IMG/VR virus record: IMGVR_UViG_3300034196_000151
Source of the DNA: a virus
Taxonomy: Duplodnaviria; Heunggongvirae; Uroviricota; Caudoviricetes
Length of the DNA: 64,000 nt
Direction: 5' to 3' (one strand)
Part shown: positions 26,359 through 59,358 of the stretch, in pieces
How positions within the stretch are numbered: position 1 is the stretch's first letter
Layout: every line of letters starts with the position of its first letter
Notes under the pieces: model-generated
The model's database searches: none
What the model was told of the DNA's origin: nothing
What the model saw: only the letters and a program-made list of their open reading frames with translations
Made by a program: the position numbers and the translations under genes

Positions 26359-26470
26359 TTTTTGTATCCTTTTTGACTGATTTGATTAAGTGAGCAATCA
26401 CAAGGATAAAGGCTTACTGTTTTGCTCGACCCTTGCTGCTTCAACGTGGTTAGTATATCAAAGGTAATTA
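26359..26470 (-). promoter_or_regulatory. type B promoter plus ~55-nt structured leader
   Basis: Minus strand GATATACT then AACCACGTTGAAGCAGCAAGGGTCGAGCAAAACAGTAAGCCTTTATCCTTGTGATT; near-identical copy at 58873-58985 ahead of an unrelated lipoprotein gene. Confidence 0.5.
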
Positions 26471-26495
26471 ACCAAAACAAGCTTTTTAAGAGATT

Positions 26496-26816
26496 TTAAG
26501 AAAAATAAGGTAGTATGTTCATTGGTTCAAAGGGAGTCGAAACCACCTTTTTATAAAATAGAACAGTCAAAACAACGGCAACGGTGGCAAAAGGACTAAC
26601 AAAAACTGCCGAAGCATAATCCCCCTTCCAGACAGACGAACCACACAACAACACCAAAAAGGAAGTCAGCATAATCAAGAGAGCAAAAAATATAAAATCA
26701 ATAATTTTTTCTTCTCGAAAACTTTTAAATCTTGCTTTTTCAGCCAAATAAATATTTTTTTTATCTTGTTCTTTTTTCAAAAGAATCCAAGCATTAATTT
26801 CTTTATGAGTCTTCAT
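26496..26816 (-). CDS. membrane protein
   Basis: 106 aa, two or three hydrophobic helices. Confidence 0.45.
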   Translation of the reverse strand: MKTHKEINAWILLKKEQDKKNIYLAEKARFKSFREEKIIDFIFFALLIMLTSFLVLLCGSSVWKGDYASAVFVSPFATVAVVLTVLFYKKVVSTPFEPMNILPYFS

Positions 26817-26836
26817 AATATTAAACCTCGCGTAGT

Positions 26837-27427
26837 TTAAATTTCAGCCAAACCTGTTTTAAAGTAATGAGAAATCAGCAAAATCCGATACAGCTCTTTT
26901 ATTTTAAGGGTTGGCGTTTTCTCTATTTCTGCCTTGATCGGATCATAATCAAAATCATAAAAACCCATAGGTTCTTTTGACATGATGACTTTAATCCAAC
27001 GATAAAGGTTGGGAGTTTCACGGTCAGAAAGAAATAACATCAATTCATTTTTGGAGTTGATAATGGCTTCTTTCACAGCATATTTATAATGCTTACCTAT
27101 ATCAATGAGCGAAGTTTCAGGTGCCGAATATAGACCATCACAAGACACCAAATTCTGAACTTCTGTCAAATGACAGGCATTTTCAAGAAAAGTCTTATCA
27201 TGATCACTAAACTCGGTATGGTGGGAAATGATCGTAGTGAGTGCAGCCACTTTGTTGGTAATTCCACCCATGATAATAATGCTTAATTCACCTTTGACCG
27301 CCTGAACACAGCGGCTAAAAAAGTCGTTTTTGAGAGGTCGTGTAAAAAAACCATTTTCATCAAGAATGACCTTGGCAACATCAATATCCATGCCCGTTTC
27401 GATTCCATATGAAGAGTATTGTGTCAT
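26837..27427 (-). CDS. hypothetical protein
   Basis: 196-aa ORF. Confidence 0.5.
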   Translation of the reverse strand: MTQYSSYGIETGMDIDVAKVILDENGFFTRPLKNDFFSRCVQAVKGELSIIIMGGITNKVAALTTIISHHTEFSDHDKTFLENACHLTEVQNLVSCDGLYSAPETSLIDIGKHYKYAVKEAIINSKNELMLFLSDRETPNLYRWIKVIMSKEPMGFYDFDYDPIKAEIEKTPTLKIKELYRILLISHYFKTGLAEI

Positions 27428-27503
27428 GTAATAAAAACTCCATTAAAAAGATACCCGAGTATAACAGAATTGTAAAAAAAATAAAAGCCCATGAAAGGCT
27501 TTT

Positions 27504-28070
27504 TTAATTGCGATATAAATCTATTGGCGGCTGGTAAGTAGCTTCAATGACTACAAATAAATTATAGCTGTTCATGAGGGATTGAACTTCGACCACCACA
27601 TCACCTTTTTTGTATTTAGCCACCTTTGGTGTCGTCAAGTCTTCATAACCTGCTGCAACCAGATCGCTTTTTGCTTTATTGTAAACGGAAAGAGCATTGT
27701 TGTAGAGTGTTGCCTTATCGTTAAAATACAATTCATTAGAGCGTGATACATCACTAAACGTGTAAGTAATTTTACCACTTTGAACAACGCCTTCATCGTA
27801 TGTGTATTTTACTTCTGGATTAATGTGTTCGCCTTCTTCCACGACCAATGTTTTTGAAAAAAAGCTGTCCGTTTTAGTAGATACCTCAGTAACAGTAATA
27901 TGTTTTCCGTTTTCGGTGGAACGATACACTTTGAAAGACGGATGTTTACCCACCTGTGAAGCCATAGCAGAGGCACTGACCGGGTAAATGACAGGTTCTT
28001 GAACGTCTGCATAGACAGAGCCACAAACAGACACTGATAAGGTAAGAGCAACCATTAAACGTTTAATCAT
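27504..28070 (-). CDS. secreted protein (signal peptide)
   Basis: Start at MIKRLMVALTLSVSVCGSVYA, a signal-peptide-like N-terminus. Confidence 0.5.
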   Translation of the reverse strand: MIKRLMVALTLSVSVCGSVYADVQEPVIYPVSASAMASQVGKHPSFKVYRSTENGKHITVTEVSTKTDSFFSKTLVVEEGEHINPEVKYTYDEGVVQSGKITYTFSDVSRSNELYFNDKATLYNNALSVYNKAKSDLVAAGYEDLTTPKVAKYKKGDVVVEVQSLMNSYNLFVVIEATYQPPIDLYRN

Positions 28071-28132
28071 ACACACAACTCCTATAATGAAATATTTTAG
28101 AAACAAAAAAGCCCCATCACTGGGGCTTGTTA

Positions 28133-28399
28133 TTACGAACTTTTTACAGTGAAAGAGTCCGATGACACTTCGGAACCATCAAGAGAAAGTGTGATTCGAT
28201 AACCGGAGTAATCGTAATCATAGTAATCCGAGCAACTAAGCTCAAACGACACATCTTCTTTGACGATTGCCACAACAGCAGCCCTCAACTCAACATCAGC
28301 CTCCATCATACCCACAATGGAGTCTTTCAACAGTTCGGTAACAGCCGAACGCACATCAACATCAGTTTGCAACAAGTGAATCAGTTCTGTTTTAGTCAT
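28133..28399 (-). CDS. small acidic protein
   Basis: 88 aa; terminator aaaaaagccccatcactggggc at 28104-28130. Confidence 0.45.
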   Translation of the reverse strand: MTKTELIHLLQTDVDVRSAVTELLKDSIVGMMEADVELRAAVVAIVKEDVSFELSCSDYYDYDYSGYRITLSLDGSEVSSDSFTVKSS

Positions 28400-28533
28400 A
28401 ATAGTATCCTCAGTTGACTATCTAAACGAAAGTTTGAGGTATTTGACTGCAGAACTCTTTAACACGATTGATAATAACAAATCATCACAGAAACGTCAAG
28501 CATTATTCGGAATAAGGCTTAAATCGTTACAAC

Positions 28534-28731
28534 TCATCCAAATTGTGGTTTGTCAGCAGCGGATTTGGCATCCATTTCAGCCGACAGGCGTTCATACACC
28601 TCGGAATCGTCGTTATTATCACCACAACGACAGATGGAACCGATAACTTCATGCGGTTCAATTTGCGTGTTGCAGCCGGAGCAAATACCAAAATTTTCTT
28701 CAACTGGATTAGGGTTCGGGGCGAGTGGCAT
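28534..28731 (-). CDS. zinc-ribbon protein
   Basis: ATG at 28731 with ACGGAGAA SD below a TATAAT at ~28765; CSGCN...CRCG. Confidence 0.4.
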   Translation of the reverse strand: MPLAPNPNPVEENFGICSGCNTQIEPHEVIGSICRCGDNNDDSEVYERLSAEMDAKSAADKPQFG

Positions 28732-28883
28732 AATATTAATTCTCCGTTGTTTGAAGCGTCTATTATAGCACTTACAGCCTTTTTTATCAACGAAAGTTTT
28801 CATAAATCAACCACTTGCAATCAAAAATAACAGGAGTATACTTATAAATTAGATAGCAAGCTAACAATATAAAAGGTGATAGA

Positions 28884-29042
28884 ATGAAGAAAGAAAATGT
28901 GAAAAAAGAAATGACCGGGTTGGTGTTGAGTGTCTTTATGGGATTATTTGGTACCGGGGCCATTGCAGAAGAAAAGACCAGCACCAGCGATATAAAAAGC
29001 GAAGCGACCACTCAGGTAGATGTTAAAAAGCTTCAAAAGTAG
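28884..29042 (+). CDS. 52-aa small membrane/secreted peptide, plus strand
   Basis: AAAAGGTGATAGA SD before ATG; hydrophobic LVLSVFMGLFGTGAIA. Confidence 0.4.
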   Translation: MKKENVKKEMTGLVLSVFMGLFGTGAIAEEKTSTSDIKSEATTQVDVKKLQK

Positions 29043-29108
29043 TAGAAAAAGCTTGTTTTTGTTGTCTGTTTTAACTATAATAGACCAACAAACCAAGAGG
29101 CTTTAATC

Positions 29109-29318
29109 ATGGCAAAGAATAAAGTAAACGAACATGTGATTACAGAAGAAATGCTGAACAGCTTTGAAATCGGTAAACCGATTGCTCGTTTTGGTTTTTT
29201 TGTCAATTTGATTTTTATCTGGGTCGAAGAAGGTCGAGTAGTCTTTGCGGATCAAGTTGGTAATGTCAAAACAGAACCTGTGTGGCTTTTTTTGAAGCAC
29301 GCCCGAGTCGCTAAGTAG
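29109..29318 (+). CDS. hypothetical protein, plus strand
   Basis: 69 aa; TTGTTT-17-TATAAT promoter at 29053-29081; terminator at 29337-29363. Confidence 0.45.
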   Translation: MAKNKVNEHVITEEMLNSFEIGKPIARFGFFVNLIFIWVEEGRVVFADQVGNVKTEPVWLFLKHARVAK

Positions 29319-29336
29319 TTTTTCCAACAGTAATAA

Positions 29337-29363
29337 TAAAAAGCCCGCAGAAGCGGGTTTTTT
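29337..29363 (+). terminator. plus-strand terminator after 29109..29318
   Basis: aaaaaGCCCGCagaaGCGGGtttttt. Confidence 0.6.
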
Positions 29364-29398
29364 ATTGCTTAAAATTATGAATATTTTGTAGAAAAAAG

Positions 29399-29427
29399 CT
29401 TGTACTCGCCAGTAGTATTTGATATTA
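29399..29427 (+). promoter_or_regulatory. plus-strand promoter TTGTAC-17-TATTAT for the candidate sRNA
   Basis: cTTGTACtcgccagtagtatttgaTATTATagc. Confidence 0.5.
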
Positions 29428-29433
29428 TAGCTT

Positions 29434-29612
29434 TGGAGATGCGGGATGAGAAAAAACTCATCCTTCAGGGTTGTTCTTTAGCATCCGATGACCATTCAGA
29501 GGCTCTGCCGACATGGTAGCTCGTCATACGCTGGTGATGTATGATGGAAAACCGCACCGCATAAAAGGAGTCCAATCTTCTTTTTGGGAGAGGCTAAATG
29601 CCTCTTTTTTTT
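29434..29612 (+). ncRNA. candidate ~180-nt small RNA with own promoter and terminator
   Basis: TTGTAC-17-TATTAT promoter at 29399-29427; internal 7-bp hairpin GGATGAG-aaaaaa-CTCATCC; terminator gagaggctaaatgcctc plus T8 at 29586-29612; no ORF of convincing length. Confidence 0.45.
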
Positions 29613-29649
29613 CGTCTTGAATAAAGTAAAAAAGCCACCGAAGTGACTT

Positions 29650-30366
29650 TTATAATTTTAGTTTCGCAGGGTCGATAAGCCCTATCAAATAAACAAACTC
29701 TTTTTTACCCGCAATCTCACTGCTTTTAAAATCGGCTGAGAAGGTTGTGTAGAATTTTTTGTAATCCGACAGTGATAAGTACCCTTGTGTAGCGGTCAAC
29801 GACTGGTTGAATGTCTCCACTGATTTTAAGGGGAACAAATTAACCACTTCAACAATTTGATTGTTTTTAAGGTCGATGATTTTAAGAGCATCAAGATCAT
29901 TAGAAACTTCTTTCAACGTTGAATAATCATGTGAAACAAGAGCTTTCGCAAACTTAATACCAATAGGAGATTTGTTAAAACTTGGATTTAGTTTAACCGT
30001 TTCATCATATAAAGCACTAATAGGCTGATACATAAACTCATCAGTAGATTTATACTGAAAAGCAATCATAATCAATGGCAAAATTGACACTGCCGTAAAA
30101 AACACCTTCTTCTTCAAATATGTTTTATTGATCCAATGAAAAACTGTTTGTAAGACAATGAACGCATAAACAAATAAAAAAGGGATTAGAAAGTAAACAG
30201 AAGTTTTATCGACACTAAAATTAGCAAACTTTGCATAGTGATATTCACTCGAAACTGCAACATGCTGATTAATTAATTCTACCGCGATATTGGTGCAGAA
30301 ATACATGACACCTAAAACAAAAACACTAGACAACAACACAATAAGTAGATCACTTATTTTTTCTTT
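29650..30366 (-). CDS. multi-pass membrane protein (AT-rich)
   Basis: Start MKEKISD with GGAG SD; several TM helices. Confidence 0.5.
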   Translation of the reverse strand, partial: KEKISDLLIVLLSSVFVLGVMYFCTNIAVELINQHVAVSSEYHYAKFANFSVDKTSVYFLIPFLFVYAFIVLQTVFHWINKTYLKKKVFFTAVSILPLIMIAFQYKSTDEFMYQPISALYDETVKLNPSFNKSPIGIKFAKALVSHDYSTLKEVSNDLDALKIIDLKNNQIVEVVNLFPLKSVETFNQSLTATQGYLSLSDYKKFYTTFSADFKSSEIAGKKEFVYLIGLIDPAKLKL

Positions 30367-30462
30367 CATGATAAACTCCAATTCAAATTTTACAAATCGT
30401 CTCATGAAATAAAAAAAAGTCAACAAAAAACCCGCCGAAGCGGGTCTATTTAGGTATTCTTA

Positions 30463-30804
30463 TTAGCAACGACGCCCGTTACGATGGTCTTTACCGTAAG
30501 GCTGTGTAAACTTGTGGTAGTGGCGAGCGGCTGGATTTGGTTTTACACGTAGGTCGAAAGACTGACGTTGATAAGCTTCCAGTTCAAGGCTTTCATGAAT
30601 AATAATGTTATTGATTTCATTAATACTCATTGGCCTGCAAAGTTCAGCAAAAAAATCACCAACAGGGCAAGCATGCTCATCAACCAACAGGACTTGCTTG
30701 CGAGCTTCACGCTCAGTCACAGCAACAATTTTATGATCGGGCAGACGATCCTGCAGAACACGAATGACATCAATATCACCACCAACAACAAGAATTTTAC
30801 GCAT
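30463..30804 (-). CDS. hypothetical protein
   Basis: Start MRKILVVGGD with TGGAG SD. Confidence 0.45.
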   Translation of the reverse strand: MRKILVVGGDIDVIRVLQDRLPDHKIVAVTEREARKQVLLVDEHACPVGDFFAELCRPMSINEINNIIIHESLELEAYQRQSFDLRVKPNPAARHYHKFTQPYGKDHRNGRRC

Positions 30805-30901
30805 TTTTAAAGCTCCATTCGATGATTTGTTGAACAAATTATAGCACAATCAAGCGATAAAAAAAAGCCTATCAAGCGATAGGCTGTAAAAAATGTTCAT
30901 T

Positions 30902-31126
30902 TTAAACCGAAGCTGAAAGCTCAGCGATATGCAAATCAAGAGCTTTTTTTGCCTTATTGAAGTCGTCCCACAAGATCGCCAACTTTTGAGCTTCTGGTGT
31001 ATCTACCAATAGATCTTTGGTTGGAAAAGCTGGTTCAACATGTAACAGACCACCAGCTTCATGAAGACGCAAAACTTTCGCAATGCTCATTTTGTCAGGA
31101 ACGTTAGTGTGAACAGGCTGGCTCAT
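30902..31126 (-). CDS. hypothetical protein
   Basis: 74-aa ORF. Confidence 0.45.
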   Translation of the reverse strand: MSQPVHTNVPDKMSIAKVLRLHEAGGLLHVEPAFPTKDLLVDTPEAQKLAILWDDFNKAKKALDLHIAELSASV

Positions 31127-31192
31127 GCTGTAAACTCCTACAAGGTGGGAAGGTCTTCATTATACAATAAAGACCTTGGAATTGAAAGCTTT

Positions 31193-34144: not shown

Positions 34145-34154
34145 TTTTTATCCC

Positions 34155-36030: not shown

Positions 36031-36058
36031 AAAAAAGGCACACCATCACTGGAATGCC
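36031..36058 (-). terminator. conserved-stem terminator family member (GNRA loop)
   Basis: On the minus strand GGCAUUCCA-GUGA-UGGUGUGCC followed by a U-run. Confidence 0.55.
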
Positions 36059-36079
36059 TTTTGTCAACAACTGTCCTTT

Positions 36080-36727
36080 TTACACTTGTCGTGCTTCCAT
36101 GACATGAATGAGGTCATGACTATACACGGGGTTAGTTCTCACCAGACCGTTCTGGATAAAATTCAAGAGGGTTGGGTATTTTTTACGAAACTCTTTCGGT
36201 AAAGCTTCAAAGAGTTCATCCTTCAATGTGTTGAAGTGCTTAATATCGGGATTGTAATATACAACGTCTTTTTGAGCTTTAATTTCAAAGTTGGTAAAAC
36301 CCAACTCACGATAAGCGACGATTAGTGCCTCATAATCAACAGGGTCGATGATTTTCTTGTTGATGAACAAAGCAGCCCCCAAATCGCTCTCAGGAACACG
36401 GACAGCAGCCAAAAATTCTTGGGTCAGTTTTTCGAGTTCGGCCTGAATTTTATCATTATGTTTAGAAACTTCTTCTCGTCGGCTATTAATCAAATTACCA
36501 AAAACTTCAAGGTCTGCCACCAGTTTTTCTTGCATAGCTAAAGCAGCGGCTGGCATTGCGTCGGTTTGTAGTTCACGAACAATATCCGCCAACGAACGGG
36601 AATCGTCATGTTCTTCATACCAAACATCAGGAGAAGACGGGAGTTGCAGCATTTTGGCATGCAAGGCTTTTTTAGCCACTTGAAATTCAGCGGTCAATTT
36701 TTTTACGTCTTCAACAGTTACTGTCAT
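36080..36727 (-). CDS. hypothetical protein, paralog family member 1
   Basis: 215 aa; shared blocks (F/L)I(N/D)K(K/R)(I/K)I.P.D.A.L(I/V).(A/V)Y..LG(F/I)T.(F/Y)...(K/R)D(V/I)VYYNP. Confidence 0.55.
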   Translation of the reverse strand: MTVTVEDVKKLTAEFQVAKKALHAKMLQLPSSPDVWYEEHDDSRSLADIVRELQTDAMPAAALAMQEKLVADLEVFGNLINSRREEVSKHNDKIQAELEKLTQEFLAAVRVPESDLGAALFINKKIIDPVDYEALIVAYRELGFTNFEIKAQKDVVYYNPDIKHFNTLKDELFEALPKEFRKKYPTLLNFIQNGLVRTNPVYSHDLIHVMEARQV

Positions 36728-36802: not shown

Positions 36803-36833
36803 AAAAAAAAAGGCACTTCATCACTGGAATGCC
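36803..36833 (-). terminator. conserved-stem terminator family member
   Basis: aaaaaaaaaGGCACTTCATCACTGGAATGCC; on the minus strand a 9-bp stem with a GUGA loop, then a U-run. Confidence 0.55.
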
Positions 36834-36849
36834 TCAAATATCTGTGTAG

Positions 36850-37494
36850 TTATGCTTTTTTGGCATTAAAAACCGATGACATGCACGCGGTCAATGGGTC
36901 TGAATCAACGTATTCACTTCTCATATTATCCCAAAGGTCGGGGTAATTATGTTGAAACAATGATGGTGAATTCATGATGATCATGTTTTTCAAGCCATCT
37001 TCATCTACCTTGTTAGGATTGTAATAAACAATATCACGAAGTGTGAAGGTTTTGTAATGAGTGATCCCCAAAGTTTTATAAACGTCCACCAGAGTGGCAT
37101 GATCTTCTGGGGTAATTTTTCGCTTGTCAATGAGCAAAACGGCAGAAAGCAAACGTTCTGGAATATCAGTAGCTTTAAGATATTCCGTATGCAAATTACG
37201 CATTTCCATGCTGACATTGTAGTTGTTCAATTTAGCAACATGAATTTTCTCATTCATGATGTTTTGGTACGTTAACAACGCTTTCATAGCAGCTTCATGA
37301 GGCTCTTTGGCTTCTTCTGGCAATGGGTCAGTAGCCATATCACGAAGCATGTCAAGCAGCGTCGTCTCCCTCTCTGTGGCATGGTTGTAGACTTTAAAGC
37401 TGGCAGGAATTAACACAATATTTTTACCCAACTCGTCGCGGGCTAATTTGTAAGCCTTGGTCAATTGTTCAAGCTCGGAGTGAGTCAAAATCAT
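36850..37494 (-). CDS. hypothetical protein, paralog family member 2
   Basis: Start MILTHSELEQ with AAGGTGA SD; paralog of 36080..36727 and 63164..63796. Confidence 0.55.
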   Translation of the reverse strand: MILTHSELEQLTKAYKLARDELGKNIVLIPASFKVYNHATERETTLLDMLRDMATDPLPEEAKEPHEAAMKALLTYQNIMNEKIHVAKLNNYNVSMEMRNLHTEYLKATDIPERLLSAVLLIDKRKITPEDHATLVDVYKTLGITHYKTFTLRDIVYYNPNKVDEDGLKNMIIMNSPSLFQHNYPDLWDNMRSEYVDSDPLTACMSSVFNAKKA

Positions 37495-37575
37495 GATAAT
37501 CACCTTGAAGTAAGTTTTTAAATCGTGCCGTCATTATAACACTAGTTGATAGCAAAAACAACATTTATTGAAAGC

Positions 37576-37603
37576 AAAAAAGGCACTCCATCGCTGGAAT
37601 GCC
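37576..37603 (-). terminator. conserved-stem terminator family member
   Basis: aaaaaaGGCACTCCATCGCTGGAATGCC. Confidence 0.55.
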
Positions 37604-37622
37604 TCTTGTCCATCAATCGAGG

Positions 37623-38024: not shown

Positions 38025-38122
38025 GATTTTGTTTCCTTGGCTTGTTTAAGTGGGATAAGTATAACAACATTCACTAGGGTTAGCAAGACATTTAGGCTTT
38101 CAAAATGAAGCTTTTTGAAAGC

Positions 38123-41140: not shown

Positions 41141-41245
41141 TCTAGGTAATAGGTGAGTAGTTTATCAAAAAATATAGGTTTTGTCTATTAATCAAATAAA
41201 AGAAAGCCACTCCAACAATGGAATGGCACTCATGCGGCTTTTAAG

Positions 41246-46138: not shown

Positions 46139-47260
46139 TTACTCGGGGATTTCGACTTGTTTACGAGCAAACACCATGATAGCCGCTTGCTTGTAGTCGA
46201 TTTCAGCACCGGAATACTTGCTAATCAAGACATGCAGCAAGAGCGGTGCAACTTCCTTCGCTTTACGGGCATAATCACCACGTTCCAACCCTTTATGTTC
46301 TTCGTGGAAAGATTCCACAGTGCGAACAAGGTAATGATAGCTTTTACGGGCATAGTCTTCGACTTCATCCAAACGAGCCAGAATTTCGGCCAGTGGGAAG
46401 TTATCGCTGTGTGTCCGGTAGTGATACAGGGAACGAATTTCATCCAGAATTTCATGAAGGGTCGCTTCATAAATCACCTGACGTTCTTTGGAACGGTCTT
46501 GAATGTTGATAACCGCCGACATTTTCAGGTAAGGAATGGTCTTGACTTTGTACATATCAGGGCCGATTTCAATCACATAACCTTCGATATCTGGGTCATT
46601 AACGTTGATTTCGTTAACGGGGATACGCTTCACCAGATGGGCAGCAATGACCGGATATTCTGCGGCAAATTCTGCCGAACGAATGTCCACATAAGCCCCT
46701 GTGTTCATGTCGCGGGCTTTCAACACATGAACTTCGTAGTCAGTGTATTCGATGAACACACGGTTTTTCGGCGTGGTCAGTTCCAAGTCAACCGAAACAC
46801 CTGTGCGGGTCAGCCGCTCAACGTCTGAGTGCAATTCTGGACTGATAGACTGTTCAACAAGGCTGTAATCAGCAAACGTAGGCTTCTTTTTGCTCTTGTA
46901 GTAAATCGTATCATTGATCGGAGAAATATAGCTGGTGAGCAACGAGCCATCCGGTTTCAGATAAGCGTGGTCGGCTTCTTCTGGCTTCACCTTTTGCGTT
47001 TCAGGGGTTTCGCCCAAGGAAAAGAATTTCTGCATAGGCAATGCCACCAGCAAAGGTTCAGTGCCACCCATGTAGAACATCACACCACGGCAATCTTTCG
47101 CACCCGGAAGCTTGAATTCGGAGTGTTTCGGAATGTCATAGTTGAAGACACGGTAAGTGCCGCCGTCAACTGCCGACACTTCATCACGGTATTTGAAAGA
47201 ACCCGGATTCGTGACCAACAGGTTCATGAGTTGTGCATACAGTTCTTGTTGATAGGTCAT
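46139..47260 (-). CDS. rnlA: RNA ligase 1 (Rnl1/RnlA family)
   Basis: 373 aa (T4 Rnl1 is 374 aa); adenylylation motif AYLKPDGSL (K-x-DG); GTGGAGA SD; TATAAT at ~47294. Confidence 0.7.
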   Translation of the reverse strand: MTYQQELYAQLMNLLVTNPGSFKYRDEVSAVDGGTYRVFNYDIPKHSEFKLPGAKDCRGVMFYMGGTEPLLVALPMQKFFSLGETPETQKVKPEEADHAYLKPDGSLLTSYISPINDTIYYKSKKKPTFADYSLVEQSISPELHSDVERLTRTGVSVDLELTTPKNRVFIEYTDYEVHVLKARDMNTGAYVDIRSAEFAAEYPVIAAHLVKRIPVNEINVNDPDIEGYVIEIGPDMYKVKTIPYLKMSAVINIQDRSKERQVIYEATLHEILDEIRSLYHYRTHSDNFPLAEILARLDEVEDYARKSYHYLVRTVESFHEEHKGLERGDYARKAKEVAPLLLHVLISKYSGAEIDYKQAAIMVFARKQVEIPE

Positions 47261-47316
47261 GTAAATCTCCACATTAAGCATATTTGAATGTATTATATCA
47301 AAAACTGATTTTTAAT

Positions 47317-48228: not shown

Positions 48229-49356
48229 CTAGGCTTCGACAGGTGGCGACAAATCGCCCAACTCAATCTGTTCCAAAGACCAGTCAACCAGATGGTTTTT
48301 AGCGTAATACGACAGGTAGTCGTTTTTCATGCCGCGAAGCAAGCACATTACAAAGCCAAAATGTGGATGGCCTTTAAGTTTGATCGCCGCCGACTTGAAG
48401 TCAAGCCCTTGGAACTCTGCCGCAATGTCGCTCACTTCTTTATCCAACGCTTCAACCGAAGATTTGATAGCGTCATTGATACGATAGATGTTGCTCAAAT
48501 CAGCCGTTGGGGAGTTCAACGACAAGTAAGCAATGTAGTCGTCCAACTTTTCTTCAACCACTAAGCGAGCAATATCACGCTCACGAACAAAACTAACCGC
48601 ATGGTGCAAATTCATATACCATTTAGTTTTGATTTTGATCATTTCACCGTTAGCGAACTGAATAACGTAGCCTTCAATTCCTTCAACCGTGTTCAACGAC
48701 TTCAACAGCGAAGCCAAATCAAATTCTTCACCAAACAGCGGCTTGTTGACCGGAATATCAAACAACAACGCCAGTTGCTCTTTTTCAGCAGGCATCAAGT
48801 AATCACCTGTGATGTTGTGGCGAACGTGAAGAAGTGTCATGTTTTCTTCGTCATAACGCAAAACGATACGATGTTTTGGCGAAGTGAATTCAAAAATAGG
48901 GGTCAGTTGTGCCTGAGAGCAATATTTAGTGAACTCGTAGTATTTCTGGTTGTTCGATACAAAGCCTTCTGCAGAAACAGCCACATCCGATTTGAAGGAC
49001 TTCTTGGACTTGGCAAAGAATTCACCGTTGAACAGCCCTGTGGTGATCATGGAACCATCCATTTTATCAAACCCGGCCACCATCTTGTTCCAATCCAAAA
49101 CGGCTGGCTGGACTTCTGCACGCTCTGCAAGGTTGAAGAACTTGTGCAACGGACGGGACAAGATTTTACCATCGTCGGCAAACGTAATACCGCGAGCTTC
49201 TTTTTCGACCGGAGTGTTAAAAGAATCACCATTGCTGATGTTGTAGCAAACGATGTTCGCCCCGTTATCCTGCTTGTTAACAGAGATATAGGCACGATCT
49301 TTGATATGGGGAAGCATATCATCAAGGGTTTCAATACGCGGGAAGATGCTAGACAT
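48229..49356 (-). CDS. RNA ligase 1 family, second paralog
   Basis: 375 aa; FDKMDGSM (K-x-DG) and shared ARG(I/V)(T/M)F, P(L/M)(H/Q)KFF, KSKK blocks with 46139..47260. Confidence 0.65.
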   Translation of the reverse strand: MSSIFPRIETLDDMLPHIKDRAYISVNKQDNGANIVCYNISNGDSFNTPVEKEARGITFADDGKILSRPLHKFFNLAERAEVQPAVLDWNKMVAGFDKMDGSMITTGLFNGEFFAKSKKSFKSDVAVSAEGFVSNNQKYYEFTKYCSQAQLTPIFEFTSPKHRIVLRYDEENMTLLHVRHNITGDYLMPAEKEQLALLFDIPVNKPLFGEEFDLASLLKSLNTVEGIEGYVIQFANGEMIKIKTKWYMNLHHAVSFVRERDIARLVVEEKLDDYIAYLSLNSPTADLSNIYRINDAIKSSVEALDKEVSDIAAEFQGLDFKSAAIKLKGHPHFGFVMCLLRGMKNDYLSYYAKNHLVDWSLEQIELGDLSPPVEA

Positions 49357-53913: not shown

Positions 53914-54024
53914 CGTAAGTTCCTTAAATTTTCTCGATTGTATCATAAACAAGATTTTTTGTGAACCTATTTTTTTGCAAAAAAAAGCAACCTATCGCTA
54001 GATTGCTGTCTCTAACCTATGAAA

Positions 54025-54423: not shown

Positions 54424-54543
54424 TGTCGGTAATTCCTAATTGCGTTTGTTTATTTTAACAAAGAATGAGGCAAATTACAACAAAAAACTTAATTTTGAAT
54501 AAAAAAAAGTCAAAAGAAGATAATCCTTTAAACTTAAGGTTTC

Positions 54544-54735: not shown

Positions 54736-54794
54736 AGCAAATACTCCTACATGATGATCAAAAAACCCTCCGAAGAGGGCTTTTCTTTTGTTTT

Positions 54795-55112
54795 TCAGCT
54801 TTTGTCAGCTTTCAAGAAGAAGTTCTCTTCTTCCCATTTGAACTTCATGATCATATGCTGCATGGCAGGAACGAACTCGGCGGGCACTTCCCATGAAGAA
54901 GTCAGCGAGCCATCAGAACATTGCTCATCTACCTTATCACGACCACCCCAGCAAGAAATGCAGTCCAATGCATAGAACTGAGATTTCAGCAGTGCCGAAG
55001 CTTCACCCTGTTTGTAAAGCATCGAAGTCGTGCAATTAACCCAAACACGTTTAGTGCTGGTAAGCGTGTCAGAGACGTAGACCAAAGGCTTTTTTTCAAA
55101 GTTGAAAGGCAT
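54795..55112 (-). CDS. hypothetical protein
   Basis: 105-aa ORF; UUCG terminator aaaaaaccctccgaagagggc at ~54765-54795. Confidence 0.45.
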   Translation of the reverse strand: MPFNFEKKPLVYVSDTLTSTKRVWVNCTTSMLYKQGEASALLKSQFYALDCISCWGGRDKVDEQCSDGSLTSSWEVPAEFVPAMQHMIMKFKWEEENFFLKADKS

Positions 55113-55215
55113 TTTTTAATCCTTGATGATGTGTTTTGATGAACAGATTATAACGTAAAAACTCATTTTTAACAACCAATATTTTGGCTGAAATGAAAAA
55201 ACCGCCGAAGCGGTC

Positions 55216-55722
55216 TTATTCCTCAGTGCTGAGTGTGGCAACCTTTTCAAAGAAGCCACTGTCAGTCAACTTTTGTAAGATAACTTCACGCGAATCACGT
55301 TTGATTTGGTCATGATTCACATTGGTTTGCGGTGTCGAGTAACGATAGACAAGGCTAGTAATTTCAGCCGGAGTCAGTTTCAGGACAGCTTCAAGGCGAA
55401 CATCATTGTATTCCATTACCGCACCGAAAGGCATGACTTCTTCACCGGAGAGGTAATCCTTGATGACAAGGTGAGGACGTTTAGCCTTGGAAACATCTTG
55501 AATTGCGATACCAATACCAACAACAGGATTCGACCAGTCATTACCCACGGCAATAACAGGCTTACCAATCAAAACTTCCAAAGCAGCCCGTTCAATAACA
55601 TCTTCACGCCCACGGCGTTCTTTTTCTGATGCTGTCACAGCCGCTTGAGACATTTGATACATTTCAGCCGGGAACAGTGCTTGAAAGGTCAGAAACACTT
55701 TTTCTTTGATAGTGCTAAGCAT
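55216..55722 (-). CDS. hypothetical protein
   Basis: 168-aa ORF. Confidence 0.5.
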   Translation of the reverse strand: MLSTIKEKVFLTFQALFPAEMYQMSQAAVTASEKERRGREDVIERAALEVLIGKPVIAVGNDWSNPVVGIGIAIQDVSKAKRPHLVIKDYLSGEEVMPFGAVMEYNDVRLEAVLKLTPAEITSLVYRYSTPQTNVNHDQIKRDSREVILQKLTDSGFFEKVATLSTEE

Positions 55723-55785
55723 GGCGTTACTCCAAAAGATAAGGGGTACATTATATATAAAACCAAAATTTAAAGCAATTAGAAC

Positions 55786-55980
55786 TTAAAGAAAACTACC
55801 AAAAAGACCAAAGAGCGGCTTACCCAAAAGCCCCAAAAGGCACAGAACAATAGCCACTAAAAACAAGCCAGTGTTAAATCGCTGAGAGCGATAAATGCCG
55901 GAACGCATTTCGATCAACTGGTTCTCGCATGCAATGTGTTCATCACTGCCGCCACATTTAACACAATTACAAACAACCAT
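55786..55980 (-). CDS. zinc-ribbon protein with C-terminal TM helix
   Basis: Start MVVCNCVKCGG with GAAGGG SD. Confidence 0.4.
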   Translation of the reverse strand: MVVCNCVKCGGSDEHIACENQLIEMRSGIYRSQRFNTGLFLVAIVLCLLGLLGKPLFGLFGSFL

Positions 55981-56150
55981 GACAATACCCTTCACTTGAT
56001 GATTTCGACTATTATAGCAAAATACGAACAAAATAAAAAGCAGTTTTTAACTAAAAATAAATCAAAAAACACTTTTCAAACGCTTAAAATCTTGGTATAA
56101 TGACCCCACTGAAACAAACCAACCATACAAAACTTATTGAGGTGATACCA

Positions 56151-56273
56151 TGAAAGTTCAAAACTTCGTAGCAAAACACATGAACACCGTCAATAAGGCG
56201 GCAACGCATGTAGACAAGAAGCGTAAAGACAAAAACAAACGCGACAAGCGTGCTTACTTGAAGGAGATGTAAT
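56151..56273 (+). CDS. 40-aa highly basic protein, plus strand
   Basis: MKVQNFVAKHMNTVNKAATHVDKKRKDKNKRDKRAYLKEM; TGGTATAAT promoter at ~56110-56120, GAGGTGA SD, UUCG terminator at 56291-56320. Confidence 0.45.
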
Positions 56274-56290
56274 CCTTCGGTAAGTTGAAA

Positions 56291-56320
56291 AAGAAAAGGT
56301 GTCTTCGGACACCTTTTTTT
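56291..56320. terminator. bidirectional terminator with UUCG loop
   Basis: aaaAGGTGTCttcgGACACCTttttttt. Confidence 0.6.
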
Positions 56321-56337
56321 GTGCGTGTTGTTTGGGA

Positions 56338-56910
56338 TTAGAACAAGCTAAAAATACCTGCAACAGTGCCTGCCGTGCCAATAACATCCCAAATGTCAAT
56401 CGACCGAGAATCCTCACCAGAAGCGGTGCGGCTATATCGTGTTCGATCTGGAATTCGTTGGCCCATTCTAGACGGAGATCCCACAATTGACATCCAGATA
56501 TCACGATTCACATCGTGCGTATCCTTTGATTTCCCCAGCAGAACAAAATCGCCATTAGAACTCATGGCACCATTGAAAAGCTGAAAATCATCATTAACAG
56601 GAAATGATTTTTTAAAATGTTCCGGCATAGGTGCGTATCGGTTTTTAAATAGGAATTCAAGATATTTGACGTAAATATCATTAATGTTGGCTGATGGAAT
56701 AGATTCCGAATAGACAAACATGGAAACTTCATTTTTCTTATTGGAACCAATAATGACATTCTCATTGTCTTTTGAAAGGCGAAAGAAATTAAAGAAAAGC
56801 TTATTGTCAGGCAACTTTTGATAGCTGTAACCTTCAGCTTTTTTGGCATTCCACAAGGCTTGAACATCATCACCCAGCCCAATTTTTCTGATAGTTAGAC
56901 ACATAGTCAA
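56338..56910 (-). CDS. hypothetical protein
   Basis: 190-aa ORF. Confidence 0.5.
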   Translation of the reverse strand: MTMCLTIRKIGLGDDVQALWNAKKAEGYSYQKLPDNKLFFNFFRLSKDNENVIIGSNKKNEVSMFVYSESIPSANINDIYVKYLEFLFKNRYAPMPEHFKKSFPVNDDFQLFNGAMSSNGDFVLLGKSKDTHDVNRDIWMSIVGSPSRMGQRIPDRTRYSRTASGEDSRSIDIWDVIGTAGTVAGIFSLF

Positions 56911-57035
56911 TAACCTCCAATTTTCGCAATTATACTATAATTCTACAAAATAAACAATATTAGAAACCTACAAAATCTAAATTTAACGCACAAAAAAGAC
57001 CGAACATGTCGGCCTTTTTTATTGACTTCTGTGAT

Positions 57036-57587
57036 TTAGATGACAGTGAGAACACCGGCTTCATCAATGGTATAACCCATTTTCACAACAGCATCCAGAG
57101 CTTCTTTCAGTTGGCGTTGACGGAACTCTTTGTGGTCTTCATCAGTCAATGCCAGCCGAGTAACGACGATGCTAACATTATCTGGCAATGTCTCCCAAGT
57201 CCGATTCTTACCAGAAGTTTTGGGATGATAACGAATATCAGATCCCTTAATCACAAGAGTATTGTCTCGTATTTTTTCATCAATCATCCAATCAAGAGTT
57301 CCGAGTGAAATTTCAGCATAAGGATCTTCATGATTAAGGTGCAACACACCAGCAGCAGCCAGACGTTGACCCAACTGGCAAGCTTCCATAGAAAGTTCCG
57401 TCGAGCTAACAGTAACCGCCATACCAACAGGGCCAACCATATAGTTGATCAGGTATTTGTAGTCAGGGGCTGCATTGGTGTGCTGCAGAGCCGCCACAAT
57501 TTTTTCAAGCTTCAACTGAACAGCCAAGACAGCATTCACTGCAGACTGGGCGTCGGTTGTGTTCAGTGCAATTTTAACTTGAGTCAT
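57036..57587 (-). CDS. hypothetical protein, paralog of 43957..44532
   Basis: 183-aa ORF. Confidence 0.5.
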   Translation of the reverse strand: MTQVKIALNTTDAQSAVNAVLAVQLKLEKIVAALQHTNAAPDYKYLINYMVGPVGMAVTVSSTELSMEACQLGQRLAAAGVLHLNHEDPYAEISLGTLDWMIDEKIRDNTLVIKGSDIRYHPKTSGKNRTWETLPDNVSIVVTRLALTDEDHKEFRQRQLKEALDAVVKMGYTIDEAGVLTVI

Positions 57588-57641
57588 GATAGGATTTCCT
57601 ATTTCGTTTATGATGGGGTTATTGTATCAAAAAACAGAATT

Positions 57642-58061
57642 TTAGTCTACTTGTTTTTGCGTGTTTTTCAACACCCATTCTTCCCACTTTTGAACACGGG
57701 GCAAGCATGAAGACAATGCGTCTCTGTAATCTTTGTGAGATAAAGCAGAATCCAGCCGAACATGGGCCATATGATTTAAGTCAATGACGTCTTTTTGGGC
57801 GATATTAAGATCAATGATGTCACAACCACTGATGGTGAAAACATGCTCTTGATTGCCCACTAAACGGCCACCAAACAGGGAACGAGCGAGTAATGCCGCA
57901 AACTTACAGCTACCCGAACGATCACCATTGTAGACCATGCCACGCTCAAGGCACCGTTCTTCCCACAAGTAATCCAATGCAATGTTGACACGGATAAAGT
58001 TGTGTTCGGTGTAGGCGATTTTAGCAGGGTAAGTGCTACGAATGTCTTTAACTGAGAGCAT
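57642..58061 (-). CDS. hypothetical protein
   Basis: Start MLSVKDIR with GAAGG SD. Confidence 0.5.
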   Translation of the reverse strand: MLSVKDIRSTYPAKIAYTEHNFIRVNIALDYLWEERCLERGMVYNGDRSGSCKFAALLARSLFGGRLVGNQEHVFTISGCDIIDLNIAQKDVIDLNHMAHVRLDSALSHKDYRDALSSCLPRVQKWEEWVLKNTQKQVD

Positions 58062-58140
58062 GGTGCTGACCTTCAACCTAAATGTATAGGTAGATTATAC
58101 ACAAATTGACAATAAGACACAAGAAAAAACTTAAAAATGA

Positions 58141-58440
58141 TTAAGAATGAACATCCAGAATGGTTTCACAATCTTTAACCATCAATGCCATGTCAGCTTT
58201 AATGCTTTCAATTTTGGAAAAATCCTTTTCTTTCACTTTTTCAATCCAGACTTCAAAGCTGTTTCGATAATTTTTCTTCAAACTCTCAAAACCATTGACG
58301 AGTTGAGCCAACGAAAAACCTTTGCGGTAAAGAAACAGGCGACCACTCCATTCATAGGCAGTATAGCCATTGTCTTCAAAGACCAGTTTATAGGTTTCGT
58401 GAATAACGGCTTTGGTTGGTGCTGCAGTATGATAAGGCAT
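58141..58440 (-). CDS. hypothetical protein
   Basis: 99-aa ORF. Confidence 0.45.
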   Translation of the reverse strand: MPYHTAAPTKAVIHETYKLVFEDNGYTAYEWSGRLFLYRKGFSLAQLVNGFESLKKNYRNSFEVWIEKVKEKDFSKIESIKADMALMVKDCETILDVHS

Positions 58441-58533
58441 GATAAACCTCCAAAATTTTGTAAATTATACCACAAAACTTAAAAAAGATAAACAAAAAAC
58501 CCGCACTAGGCGGGCTTTTTAACACCGTTACAA

Positions 58534-58872
58534 TTAGTAGTAGGTGCGGTTATACATGCGGTTGGTGGTGCGGCGGAGCTGTTCTTCAAAAATCCGACGC
58601 TGACCACTCGACAAGCAGCGATCTCGGCTCTCTTCAATGTTAGCGATACGTTTCTGGAAGGTTTGTTGGGCTTTGACTGCTGACTTTTGAGAGGAAGCAA
58701 AGCGAACATCGGTTTCTTTCTGAATATAGGCATTCTGAGCCTTTTTATCAGCAGTCACAATGCATTTGCGTTCGATTTGACGCTCTTGATAAGAACCATA
58801 CTGACCAGAAGACATGCAGCCGGTCATCATTACAAGGGCAAGAGCAGCAAAAACAATTTTCATTACTTTCAT
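58534..58872 (-). CDS. lipoprotein
   Basis: MKVMKIVFAALALVMMTGC lipobox; AGAAGGA SD; type B structured leader upstream. Confidence 0.5.
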   Translation of the reverse strand: MKVMKIVFAALALVMMTGCMSSGQYGSYQERQIERKCIVTADKKAQNAYIQKETDVRFASSQKSAVKAQQTFQKRIANIEESRDRCLSSGQRRIFEEQLRRTTNRMYNRTYY

Positions 58873-58983
58873 GGTCGTATCCTTCTCGTATCAATTAAGG
58901 TCGAATGAGCAATTACAAGGGGAAAGGCTTACTGGGTTGCTCGCCCCTTGCTGCTTCGATGGAGTAATTATATCAATATCGAC

Positions 58984-59358
58984 CTAGATAATCAAGGTTT
59001 TTGGTTCATTTCTTTTAATAAGTTCGCAAAAAAAGCTGGTCATGAATTTGAGTTTCTTCCAAAAACCTTTTGGAGAAAATTGAGAACTGTGATAGGTATA
59101 CAAAGTATTTCCTTTCCAATGGTCAATCACCATACCACCACGAAAAATCATCAGAGTGACTGAGTTATAGTCATACTTGTAATAAGTGATTTTACCAGAA
59201 ACAGGATGAATAACTGGCTGACTGGTTGACTTGCTAAATTTAATTCTGGCTCCAACTCTGTTAAATTTGTCCTTGCTGAAATATTCAACAGGCAAAGAGT
59301 AACCAAGAATCATACCAACCAGAAATCGCATCAACAAAATTTGAAAGAAGATGATCAT
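58984..59358 (-). CDS. N-terminally anchored membrane protein
   Basis: 124-aa ORF with N-terminal TM helix. Confidence 0.45.
   Translation of the reverse strand: MIIFFQILLMRFLVGMILGYSLPVEYFSKDKFNRVGARIKFSKSTSQPVIHPVSGKITYYKYDYNSVTLMIFRGGMVIDHWKGNTLYTYHSSQFSPKGFWKKLKFMTSFFCELIKRNEPKTLII

What the first reader, a model, noticed from the sequence alone, without database searches (positions are those of the whole stretch)
26359..58985. ~55-nt conserved structured leader (type B) shared by a small basic ORF and an unrelated lipoprotein gene 32 kb away
Upstream of 26224..26358 the minus strand reads AACCACGTTGAAGCAGCAAGGGTCGAGCAAAACAGTAAGCCTTTATCCTTGTGATT. Upstream of lipoprotein gene 58534..58872 it reads TACTCCATCGAAGCAGCAAGGGGCGAGCAACCCAGTAAGCCTTTCCCCTTGTAAT. 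The block GAAGCAGCAAGGG.CGAGCAA..CAGTAAGCCTTT..CCTTGT is conserved and can fold as a stem, CAAGGG(G)...(C)CCCTTG, enclosing a ~22-nt loop. The stem shows partial compensatory change (GGGG/CCCC versus GGGT/ATCC). The downstream coding sequences are unrelated, so what is conserved is the untranslated leader. That is the signature of a cis-regulatory RNA such as a riboregulator, thermosensor or protein-binding operator.
Basis: seen in the sequence. Interest (0 to 1): 0.55.

Follow-up and report, generated by a model that had tools for sequence, protein, structure and literature searches.

The report
Conserved 5'-end hairpin on phage early mRNAs
Two unrelated early genes of this T4-like phage begin their mRNAs with the same ~50-nt RNA hairpin; the hairpin recurs in related uncultured phages, its stem shows compensating base changes and it matches no catalogued RNA family, but what it does is still inferred.

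Summary
Both copies exist exactly as described (minus strand, 26442..26392 and 58957..58907). A 35-nt shared pattern is expected 0 times by chance.

Each copy starts 4-6 nt after the predicted start of a sigma70-type early promoter. A covariance model found 11 more distinct copies in five related metagenomic phage contigs, in front of at least seven unrelated genes. All sit at the same distance from the -10 box. Distance to the AUG varies from 19 to 57 nt.

The fold is P1 (4-5 bp), a 3-nt bulge, S1 (8 bp) and a 21-nt nearly invariant cap. 98% of cells pair, against 52-67% for shifted controls. Three S1 pairs changed on both sides. The many G-U pairs place the structure on the sense RNA.

There is no Rfam hit and no match in INPHARED or IMG/VR. 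Occlusion of the ribosome-binding site, a thermometer, a riboswitch platform and a boxA/nut site were tested and not supported.

Best reading: a portable hairpin at the mRNA 5' end that docks a specific factor and/or shields the 5' end, setting the fate of a small group of early mRNAs. The RNA element is well supported. The mechanism is inferred. A put-like antiterminator is the main rival.

The parts
26452..26480 (-). Promoter of copy 1: -35 TTGTTT (26480..26475), 17-nt spacer, extended -10 TGATATACT with -10 TATACT at 26457..26452. Predicted +1 is G at 26445.
   Evidence: Read directly from the sequence. This site scores 8/12 and falls below the scan threshold. In all 13 copies the -10 ends at the same alignment column.
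26392..26445 (-). Leader B copy 1, from predicted +1 to the end of the hairpin. G26442 pairs with C26392. P1 is 26440..26437 with 26396..26393. S1 is 26436..26429 with 26407..26400. The 21-nt cap is 26428..26408. The 3-nt bulge is 26399..26397.
   Evidence: Pattern match. Covariance-model hits of 81.5 and 81.7 bits. Pair counts and RNAalifold consensus. S1 forms with P = 0.81 in the fold of the full 5' UTR.
26224..26358 (-). 44-aa Arg/Lys-rich protein gene served by copy 1. Shine-Dalgarno AAAGGA lies at about 26372..26367.
   Evidence: ORF list. The family is conserved, with 34 clusters and an alignment. Paralogs at 9319..9453 and 20074..20208 carry a different leader, type A.
26187..26213 (-). 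Intrinsic terminator after the 44-aa gene (GCAGTAG-CCAGT-CTACTGC followed by a T run). Two ORFs, 25939..26175 and 25608..25925, follow it before the next promoter-like site at 25582..25554.
   Evidence: Sequence. Promoter scan. ORF list.
58967..58995 (-). Promoter of copy 2: TTGATT, 17-nt spacer, TATAAT with an upstream TG. It overlaps the end of the upstream ORF 58984..59358. Predicted +1 is A at 58960.
   Evidence: Promoter scan, 10/12 with TG. Sequence.
58907..58960 (-). Leader B copy 2. G58957 pairs with C58907. P1 is 58955..58952 with 58911..58908. S1 is 58951..58944 with 58922..58915. The 21-nt cap is 58943..58923. The bulge is 58914..58912.
   Evidence: Pattern match. Covariance-model hits of 87 and 89.5 bits. 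The isolated fold has z = -3.3. S1 forms with P = 0.99 in the full UTR.
58534..58872 (-). 112-aa putative lipoprotein gene served by copy 2.
   Evidence: ORF list. Only a weak, sub-threshold match to Lpp/OprI-type lipoproteins. No relatives in the phage collection.
58493..58521 (-). Intrinsic terminator after the lipoprotein gene. It is directly followed by another extended -10 promoter (TGTGGTATAAT) for the next gene.
   Evidence: Terminator scan, 12-pair stem. Sequence.

Best explanation
Leader B is a cis-acting structured RNA module encoded from about +4 to +54 of sigma70-driven early transcripts in a narrow clade of uncultured T4-like phages.

Its fold is an irregular hairpin. It consists of G-C/P1 (5 pairs), a 3-nt bulge on the 3' strand, S1 (8 pairs) and a 21-nt nearly invariant cap. 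The cap may itself form a short invariant P3 helix with a 10-nt apical loop.

Shown:
- the element exists;
- it is under selection;
- S1 pairs in the sense RNA;
- it sits at a fixed distance from the promoter and a variable distance from the AUG;
- it is carried by at least seven unrelated genes.

Inferred:
- because it is tied to the RNA 5' end and not to the ribosome-binding site, it acts through the 5' end;
- the hairpin leaves only about 3-5 unpaired nucleotides, which would hinder 5'-end-dependent attack (RppH/RNase E type);
- its invariant cap is a docking site for a sequence-specific factor of phage or host origin;
- the marked subset of early mRNAs therefore shares a common lifetime or timing.

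The module reaches unrelated genes together with its promoter by the cassette shuffling typical of T4-type hyperplastic regions. I put about 0.85 on 'functional sense-strand 5'-terminal RNA structure' and about 0.35 on this specific stability/factor-docking mechanism.
For: Existence and selection:
- There are two window copies plus 11 further distinct copies in L011, L016/L017, L018/L019/L020, L023/L024, L025/L026 and L038, at 68-90 bits.
- Identity is 0.82 inside the element against 0.30-0.44 in the flanks.

Structure:
- 98.2% of cells pair, against 52-67% when the 3' partners are slid.
- Three S1 pairs changed on both sides (G-C/A-U 7:5; G-C/G-U/A-U; G-C/G-U/U-A), with G-U intermediates present. 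0/500 shuffles reach the observed score.
- RNAalifold independently returns P1+S1+P3.
- 33 of 169 cells are G-U. These would be A-C mismatches on the antisense strand, so the structure belongs to the sense RNA (arithmetic).

5'-end link:
- In 13/13 copies the -10 hexamer ends at the same column, 7 nt before the predicted +1 (promoter scan).

Not linked to the ribosome-binding site:
- The distance to the AUG is 19-57 nt.
- S1 forms with P = 0.7-0.99 in 10 of 11 full UTR folds, without consistent Shine-Dalgarno pairing.
- Cap-versus-initiation-region duplexes are no better than those of shuffled caps.

Modularity:
- The 44-aa gene carries leader B at 26224..26358 and in L016/L023. Its paralogs and most homologs carry the unstructured type A leader.

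Precedent:
- Promoter cassettes are known to shuffle genes in T4-type genomes (PMC2839356, PMC4122927).
- 5' leaders that stabilise mRNA are known from established knowledge (the ompA 5' hairpin, the T4 gene 32 leader).
Against: - No transcription start site has been mapped. +1 is inferred from promoter geometry.
- With 3-5 unpaired 5' nucleotides the end may still be accessible to RppH or RNase E.
- A passive protective hairpin would not need a nearly invariant 21-nt cap, and the postulated binding factor is unidentified.
- P1 has only one-sided changes and two A-A mismatches. The lower helix is therefore not proven, and an alternative GAGCA/UGCUC pairing fits equally well.
- The 13 copies come from closely related phages, so the compensatory changes represent only about three independent events.
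- One copy (L023) has an A-C mismatch in S1, and one UTR (L011a) is predicted to misfold.
Confidence: 0.35

Rival explanations
1. Leader B is a processive antitermination RNA. It would fold as it leaves RNA polymerase and make the elongation complex resistant to the many intrinsic terminators of this region. It could act alone (like HK022 put) or with a small basic protein (like lambda N at nut). The 44-aa Arg-rich protein encoded directly behind three copies is a candidate partner.
For: - The element starts at about +4 of early transcripts. putL likewise begins at +3 of the PL transcript and works in cis (PMC9378689).
- There are several copies per genome, all behind early promoters.
- The region is packed with terminators.
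- After copy 1, the 44-aa gene is followed by a terminator and then two ORFs with no promoter of their own. The same holds for the second copy in L018.
- A promoter-hairpin-small Arg-rich gene layout resembles PL-nutL-N (established knowledge).
Against: - The fold is a single ~50-nt hairpin, not the two stem-loops of ~70 nt of put (PMC9378689).
- There is no boxA. The consensus TGCTCTTTAACAA is not enriched in the window, and neither window copy matches it within 3 mismatches.
- The cap is 21 nt, not a boxB-type pentaloop.
- In 3 of 5 units inspected, the terminator is immediately followed by a fresh promoter, so read-through is not needed.
- The 44-aa protein has no detectable similarity to any family or solved structure. 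It occurs in relatives where no leader B was found within 10 kb.
Confidence: 0.2
2. Leader B is a translational operator or riboswitch. A protein or small ligand would bind the hairpin and switch translation of the downstream gene on or off.
For: - A nearly invariant cap and a covarying stem are typical of specific binding sites.
- Phage early operons are known to carry 5'-UTR hairpins bound by their own regulators, such as Aca2 and Aca1 (bioRxiv 10.64898/2026.07.27.740549).
- Three copies precede the gene of a small basic protein that could autoregulate.
Against: - There is no expression platform. No U tract follows the hairpin.
- The distance to the AUG varies from 19 to 57 nt, with no conserved pairing to the Shine-Dalgarno/AUG region.
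- The downstream genes are functionally unrelated, which is unlike a riboswitch regulon.
- No Rfam family matches, even at E = 10.
- No regulator gene sits in the single-gene window operons.
Confidence: 0.15
3. The RNA has no function. The block would be a piece of a mobile promoter cassette kept similar by recent duplication or gene conversion (PeSL-like), or a DNA-level operator downstream of the promoter.
For: - The window is a typical hyperplastic region with dozens of promoter/terminator cassettes and other repeated leaders.
- Recombination between -10 and ATG is documented for PeSLs (PMC2839356).
- Leaders A and B are exchanged in front of the same gene.
- The element has a narrow phylogenetic range.
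Against: - The flanks, including the promoter spacers, have diverged to 0.3-0.44 identity while the element stays at 0.82.
- Changes in S1 preserve pairing in 99% of cells, with three double changes.
- The G-U pairs make the structure strand-specific, which a DNA palindrome would not be.
- The PeSL stem-loop is the terminator upstream of the promoter, not a transcribed hairpin, and neither window copy has a terminator directly upstream.
Confidence: 0.1
4. Leader B works in trans. After processing, the stable 5' hairpin would act as a small RNA or decoy. Its cap could pair with a host or phage RNA, or it could titrate a host protein such as a defence sensor or nuclease.
For: - The hairpin is an independent, stable folding unit at the extreme 5' end.
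- The long invariant single-stranded cap could serve as a seed.
- Several copies on strong early promoters would give high dosage.
Against: - No complementary target of useful length occurs in the window. The best matches to the cap have 2 mismatches in 12.
- There is no terminator or obvious processing signal after the hairpin.
Confidence: 0.08

Closest known systems
HK022 putL/putR antitermination RNAs
   Same: A cis-acting structured RNA encoded right behind early sigma70 promoters. putL begins at +3 of the transcript. There are several copies per genome with shared sequence, and no link to a ribosome-binding site (PMC9378689).
   Different: put is ~70 nt with two stem-loops forming a V shape and a triplex. 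Leader B is one irregular ~50-nt hairpin with a 21-nt cap. No sequence similarity was seen, no antitermination was shown, and the phage type differs (T4-like rather than lambdoid).
5'-terminal stabiliser hairpins (E. coli ompA 5' UTR, T4 gene 32 leader; from established knowledge)
   Same: A stem-loop within a few nucleotides of the mRNA 5' end, followed by an unstructured A/C/U-rich stretch and then the Shine-Dalgarno sequence. It is portable between genes.
   Different: Those hairpins act largely independently of loop sequence. Leader B has a nearly invariant 21-nt cap and conserved flanks, which implies specific recognition. Stabilisation was not measured.
Aca2/Aca1 RNA motifs in 5' UTRs of phage acr-aca operons
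   Same: Conserved, covarying hairpins in the 5' UTR of strongly transcribed phage early operons. They are bound by a phage regulator whose reach can extend to neighbouring operons (bioRxiv 10.64898/2026.07.27.740549).
   Different: No Aca-like HTH/RHH gene lies in or beside the leader B units. Aca2 hairpins act at the ribosome-binding site, whereas leader B is tied to the 5' end at a variable distance from the AUG.
PeSL promoter-terminator cassettes of T4-type phages
   Same: Repeated regulatory cassettes with strong sigma70-like early promoters placed before unrelated small ORFs in hyperplastic regions. Recombination within them swaps genes (PMC2839356, PMC4122927).
   Different: The PeSL stem-loop is a terminator upstream of the promoter and its conservation is explained at the DNA level. 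Leader B is a transcribed hairpin downstream of the promoter with RNA-type covariation.
Lambda nut sites (boxA + boxB) with N protein
   Same: A hairpin RNA behind early promoters. One copy lies directly upstream of a small, very basic protein gene, as nutL lies upstream of N.
   Different: No boxA match. The cap is 21 nt rather than a boxB pentaloop. The 44-aa protein shows no homology to N.

Membership tests
HK022 put RNA | Located just downstream of an early promoter, beginning within the first few transcribed nucleotides (putL) | tested here: met
   In 13/13 copies the hairpin starts 4-6 nt after the +1 predicted from the -10 position. The start site is predicted, not mapped.
HK022 put RNA | About 70 nt folded into two stem-loops | tested here: not met
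   RNAalifold and the pair counts give a single irregular hairpin of about 50 nt. The flanks are not conserved.
HK022 put RNA | Suppresses termination in cis by binding the RNA polymerase beta' zinc-binding domain | not testable with these tools
   Needs read-through assays or structural work.
Lambda-type nut site | Single-stranded boxA (consensus TGCTCTTTAACAA) next to the hairpin | tested here: not met
   36 matches at 3 or fewer mismatches against 40.9 expected in the window, and none at either leader B copy. Only some relatives show a loose UGCUC..UUA resemblance.
Lambda-type nut site | boxB: short hairpin with a GNRA-like pentaloop bound by an Arg-rich N peptide | tested here: not met
   The cap is 21 nt, or a 10-nt apical loop if P3 forms. 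The 44-aa Arg-rich protein has no detectable relative among families or solved structures.
PeSL cassette (T4-type phages) | Strong sigma70-like early promoter repeated before unrelated ORFs in a hyperplastic region | tested here: met
   TTGATT-17-TATAAT with TG and TTGTTT-17-TATACT. There are dozens of similar promoters and terminators in the window.
PeSL cassette (T4-type phages) | The conserved stem-loop is a terminator immediately upstream of the promoter | tested here: not met
   The conserved hairpin is downstream of the promoter and has no U tract. No terminator lies directly upstream of either copy, and the promoter of copy 2 overlaps the end of ORF 58984..59358.
Riboswitch / RNA thermometer | Expression platform: a terminator or a helix that sequesters the Shine-Dalgarno/AUG region | tested here: not met
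   No U tract after the hairpin. Shine-Dalgarno accessibility is not linked to the element. Cap-versus-initiation-region duplexes equal the shuffled controls.
Riboswitch / RNA thermometer | Match to a described RNA family | tested here: not met
   Rfam 15 gives only two tRNAs at gathering score. Nothing is shared by the two copies at E up to 10.
Aca-type 5'-UTR RNA motif | Cognate HTH/RHH regulator gene in the same operon | tested here: not met
   Both window units are single-gene operons (a 44-aa basic protein and a lipoprotein) ending in terminators. The downstream genes of the window copies and of most related copies that were scanned gave no regulator-domain hit; not every downstream gene was scanned, and the Pfam scan of this set failed.
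5'-terminal stabiliser hairpin | Stem-loop with at most a few unpaired nucleotides at the mRNA 5' end | tested here: inconclusive
   Three unpaired nucleotides if G11-C61 forms, five if only P1 forms, counted from a predicted +1. No 5'-end data are available.
5'-terminal stabiliser hairpin | Prolongs mRNA half-life in an RNase E / RppH-dependent way | not testable with these tools
   Requires half-life measurements.

The most novel reading that the evidence does not exclude
Leader B is a nascent-RNA element that reprograms RNA polymerase for processive antitermination in T4-like phages. It would act either alone (put-like) or as the binding site of the multi-copy 44-aa Arg-rich early protein (an N/nut-like pair that also autoregulates the copy at 26224..26358). 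That would supply the antitermination device long suspected for delayed-early expression in T4-type phages.
Probability: 0.12. Interest if true: 0.8.

Novelty: new variant of a known kind. Interest (0 to 1): 0.5.

Why it matters
Post-transcriptional control in T4-type phages is known mainly from T4 itself (RegA, RegB, the gene 32 and gene 43 operators). A portable structured RNA that marks the 5' end of a subset of early mRNAs, independently of which gene follows, would be a new regulon-level signal in this large phage group.

It is small (about 50 nt), has clear boundaries and offers a natural set of compensatory variants. That makes it easy to test in reporter, half-life and terminator read-through assays.

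If it turns out to stabilise transcripts or modify RNA polymerase, it would also be a useful compact part for expression engineering. If it is only a stability hairpin, it is a modest addition to the catalogue of phage RNA motifs.

Tried and rejected
1. Known RNA families. Rfam at gathering score and at E up to 10 gave nothing shared by the two copies. The weak DUF2815-RNA hit (14.7 bits) is seen in copy 1 only.

2. Exact-pattern scans of public collections. IMG/VR gave 0 hits with three increasingly degenerate patterns. The metagenome and genome scans returned three hits each.

3. INPHARED phages. No DNA match to either locus or to the leader, and no protein match for either downstream gene.

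4. H-type pseudoknot (cap GAGCA with 3' UGCUC). It fits the data as well as P1 does. However, its connecting loop would be 3 nt across an 8-bp stem, which I judge sterically unlikely. It is kept as unresolved and not adopted.

5. Mimic of the 23S rRNA GTPase-associated region (GAAGCAGC...GUAAUAGCUCAC, recalled from memory). The resemblance holds only for the window-type copies and not for the AGCGG/UUCUGCU-type copies. No ribosomal-leader family hit was found. Rejected as chance.

6. boxA/nut. Rejected.

7. Shine-Dalgarno occlusion or cap-to-initiation-region pairing. Rejected.

8. Leader peptide. Reading frames differ between copies, an ATG is present only in L016, and the substitutions follow pairing rather than codon periodicity.

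9. RegB link. A RegB-like gene occurs in relative L032, but no homolog is in the window. The leader has no GGAG.

10. Link to the TnpB-like gene at 61260..63032. It is 2.3 kb away, and relative L012 has TnpB without leader B.

11. The 44-aa protein. No Pfam, PHROG, NCBIfam or PDB relative.

12. More distant relatives (L029-L037, L039-L045) have the 44-aa gene but no leader B within 10 kb.

Full report
**Observation.** The 35-nt shared pattern occurs only at 26408..26442 and 58923..58957. It never occurs in 100 dinucleotide-preserving shuffles. BLAST aligns 52 nt at 88% identity. The downstream ORFs are unrelated: a 44-aa Arg/Lys-rich protein (26224..26358) and a 112-aa putative lipoprotein (58534..58872). 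A full covariance-model scan of the window with filters off finds no third copy.

**Context.** The window looks like an early or hyperplastic region of a large T4-like phage.
- Nearly all genes are small and lie on the minus strand.
- Dozens of sigma70-type promoters and intrinsic terminators are repeated through it.
- It holds two tRNA genes and two RnlA-type RNA ligase paralogs.
- Relatives carry Pfam hits such as Phage_T4_Y00F and a weak REGB_T4.

Each leader copy lies directly behind a promoter. Copy 1 has TTGTTT-17-TGATATACT (read). Copy 2 has TTGATT-17-TGATATAAT. Each gene is followed by an intrinsic terminator.

**Relatives.** The phage is absent from INPHARED and from IMG/VR. Exact-pattern scans of metagenomes and genomes gave only chance hits.

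The 44-aa protein, which has two paralogs in the window, opened the way. A profile search found 34 clusters. Their contigs were fetched.

A covariance model built from four copies, and a second built from eleven, found leader B in six groups of loci. All hits scored 68-90 bits.

| Locus | Copies |
|---|---|
| L011 | 2 |
| L016/L017 | 1 |
| L018/L019/L020 | 3 |
| L023/L024 | 1 |
| L025/L026 | 2 |
| L038 | 2 |

That makes 13 distinct copies including the window's two. No copy was found in more distant relatives that still carry the 44-aa gene.

**Anatomy.** The 13 copies align without gaps (A4).
- In every copy the -10 hexamer ends at column 1, so the predicted +1 is column 8. The hairpin starts at column 11-13.
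- Mean pairwise identity is 0.82 within columns 8-61, 0.44 upstream and 0.30-0.41 downstream. Selection therefore acts on the transcribed block, not on the cassette as a whole.
- The downstream genes differ. They are the 44-aa protein (three orthologous copies), the lipoprotein, a membrane protein beginning ME(A/S)FKINK, a 182-aa protein, a 241-aa protein and others. None has a recognisable family.
- The element ends 19 to 57 nt before the AUG.

**Structure.** For G11-C61, P1 (13-16/57-60) and S1 (17-24/46-53), 98.2% of cells form standard pairs. With the 3' partners slid by 1-3 columns the figure is 52-67%.
- Three S1 pairs show changes on both sides: 21-49 (G-C 7, A-U 5, G-U 1), 22-48 (G-C 8, G-U 3, A-U 1, A-C 1) and 24-46 (G-C 11, G-U 1, U-A 1).
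- No shuffle out of 500 reaches the observed pairing or covariation score.
- RNAalifold independently predicts P1+S1 plus an invariant P3 inside the cap.
- 33 of 169 cells are G-U, which would be A-C on the other strand. The structure therefore belongs to the sense RNA and not to a DNA palindrome.
- P1 shows only one-sided changes and two A-A mismatches. An alternative pairing of cap GAGCA with the same 3' UGCUC fits equally well. I consider that pseudoknot sterically unlikely but cannot exclude it.

The copies come from closely related phages, so the double changes represent roughly three independent events.

**What it is not.**
- No Rfam family matches.
- No U tract follows the hairpin, so it is not an attenuator.
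- In folds of the full 5' UTRs the hairpin forms as an autonomous unit (S1 P = 0.7-0.99 in 10 of 11) and the Shine-Dalgarno sequence is not consistently sequestered.
- The cap pairs with the translation initiation region no better than shuffled caps do.

Thermometer and riboswitch platforms, and direct ribosome-blocking operators, are therefore not supported.
- boxA is not present.
- The PeSL cassettes of T4-type phages (PMC2839356, PMC4122927) explain how one promoter-leader module can come to precede unrelated genes. Indeed the 44-aa gene carries leader B in one place and the unstructured 'type A' leader in others. But the PeSL stem-loop is an upstream terminator, not a transcribed hairpin.

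**Mechanism.** Two facts carry the most weight. The element sits at a fixed position at the RNA 5' end with a variable distance to the AUG. It also has a nearly invariant 21-nt cap on a covarying stem.

I therefore favour a 5'-end module (about 0.35). The hairpin would limit 5'-end-dependent decay, and its cap would be read by a specific factor that gives the marked mRNAs a common fate.

The main rival (about 0.2) is a put- or nut-like antiterminator. putL also begins at +3 of an early transcript (PMC9378689). The region is full of terminators. Copy 1 is followed by a terminator and then two promoterless ORFs. A small Arg-rich protein gene sits right behind three copies. Against this, the fold is not put-like, there is no boxA, and most units are followed by fresh promoters.

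A translational operator of the Aca2/Aca1 type (bioRxiv 10.64898/2026.07.27.740549), a trans-acting RNA, and a functionless cassette remnant rank lower.

**Novelty and score.** This is an undescribed RNA motif of a familiar general kind, a structured cis-acting 5' leader. It is restricted, as far as seen, to a narrow clade of uncultured T4-like phages. The RNA element is well supported, but its function is inferred. Interest is 0.5.

Noticed in passing
window 9476-9515, 11269-11308, 20230-20269, 23392-23431, 38028-38067 (minus-strand leaders): A second repeated leader ('type A'), CCCAUCAAAACGAAACAAC..., is C/A-rich and unstructured. It starts right after early promoters. It precedes the two other paralogs of the 44-aa gene and most homologs of that gene in related phages. 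Where it precedes the 44-aa gene its Shine-Dalgarno sequence is UAGGAGAUA (contains GGAG, the T4 RegB target motif). The leader B copy of the same gene has AAAGGAUA.
   Followed up: partly
window 26224-26358, 9319-9453, 20074-20208 (all minus strand): There are three paralogous copies of a 44-aa Arg/Lys-rich protein (MQGSFGDA.ERF.G.KK.D...FR.KRRNRHQDAE). It is a tightly conserved family of 34 clusters in related metagenomic phages. No Pfam, PHROG, NCBIfam or PDB relative was found.
   Followed up: partly
L024 (Ga0370506_000001, 1,917,244 bp), L038 (ERZ27281805 k141_522346, 1,843,594 bp), P0008 (1,851,360 bp contig), L025 (Ga0308164_10000028, 497,857 bp): Gene arrangements syntenic with this phage-like region sit inside contigs of 0.5 Mb and 1.84-1.92 Mb from independent assemblies. 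IMG/VR relatives are only 152-193 kb. Whether these are misassemblies, concatemers, integrated copies or very large replicons was not resolved.
   Followed up: no
window 61260-63032 (minus strand): A 590-aa ORF carries a Cas12f1-like TNB domain (TnpB-like). It has weak tblastn matches to IS200/IS605 transposases of Thermus phages. Relative L012 also carries a split TnpB-like gene.
   Followed up: no
window 46139-47281 and 48229-49356 (minus strand): Two RnlA-type (T4 RNA ligase 1) paralogs lie about 1 kb apart. Relatives also encode Tpt1/KptA-like, NUDIX, RNase T-like and CinA-like proteins.
   Followed up: no
window 36031-36065, 36806-36840, 37576-37610 (also 41200-41234, 53980-54014): A repeated hairpin, AAAAAAGGCAC.CCATC.CTGGAATGCC, is spaced about 770 nt apart. 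It flanks what look like tandem paralogous ~215-aa genes (36080..36727, 36850..37503). Other tandem paralog pairs are at 33771-33940/34258-34427 and 52545-52687/53095-53237.
   Followed up: no
L039 11354-12673, L040 1357-2676: A 439-aa PAS-domain methyl-accepting chemotaxis-like protein gene sits on the opposite strand inside the phage-like early region of a related contig.
   Followed up: no
window 25939-26175 (minus strand): The 78-aa ORF immediately after the terminator of the leader B/44-aa unit has a weak PHROG holin match (E = 3.6e-5) and no promoter of its own.
   Followed up: no
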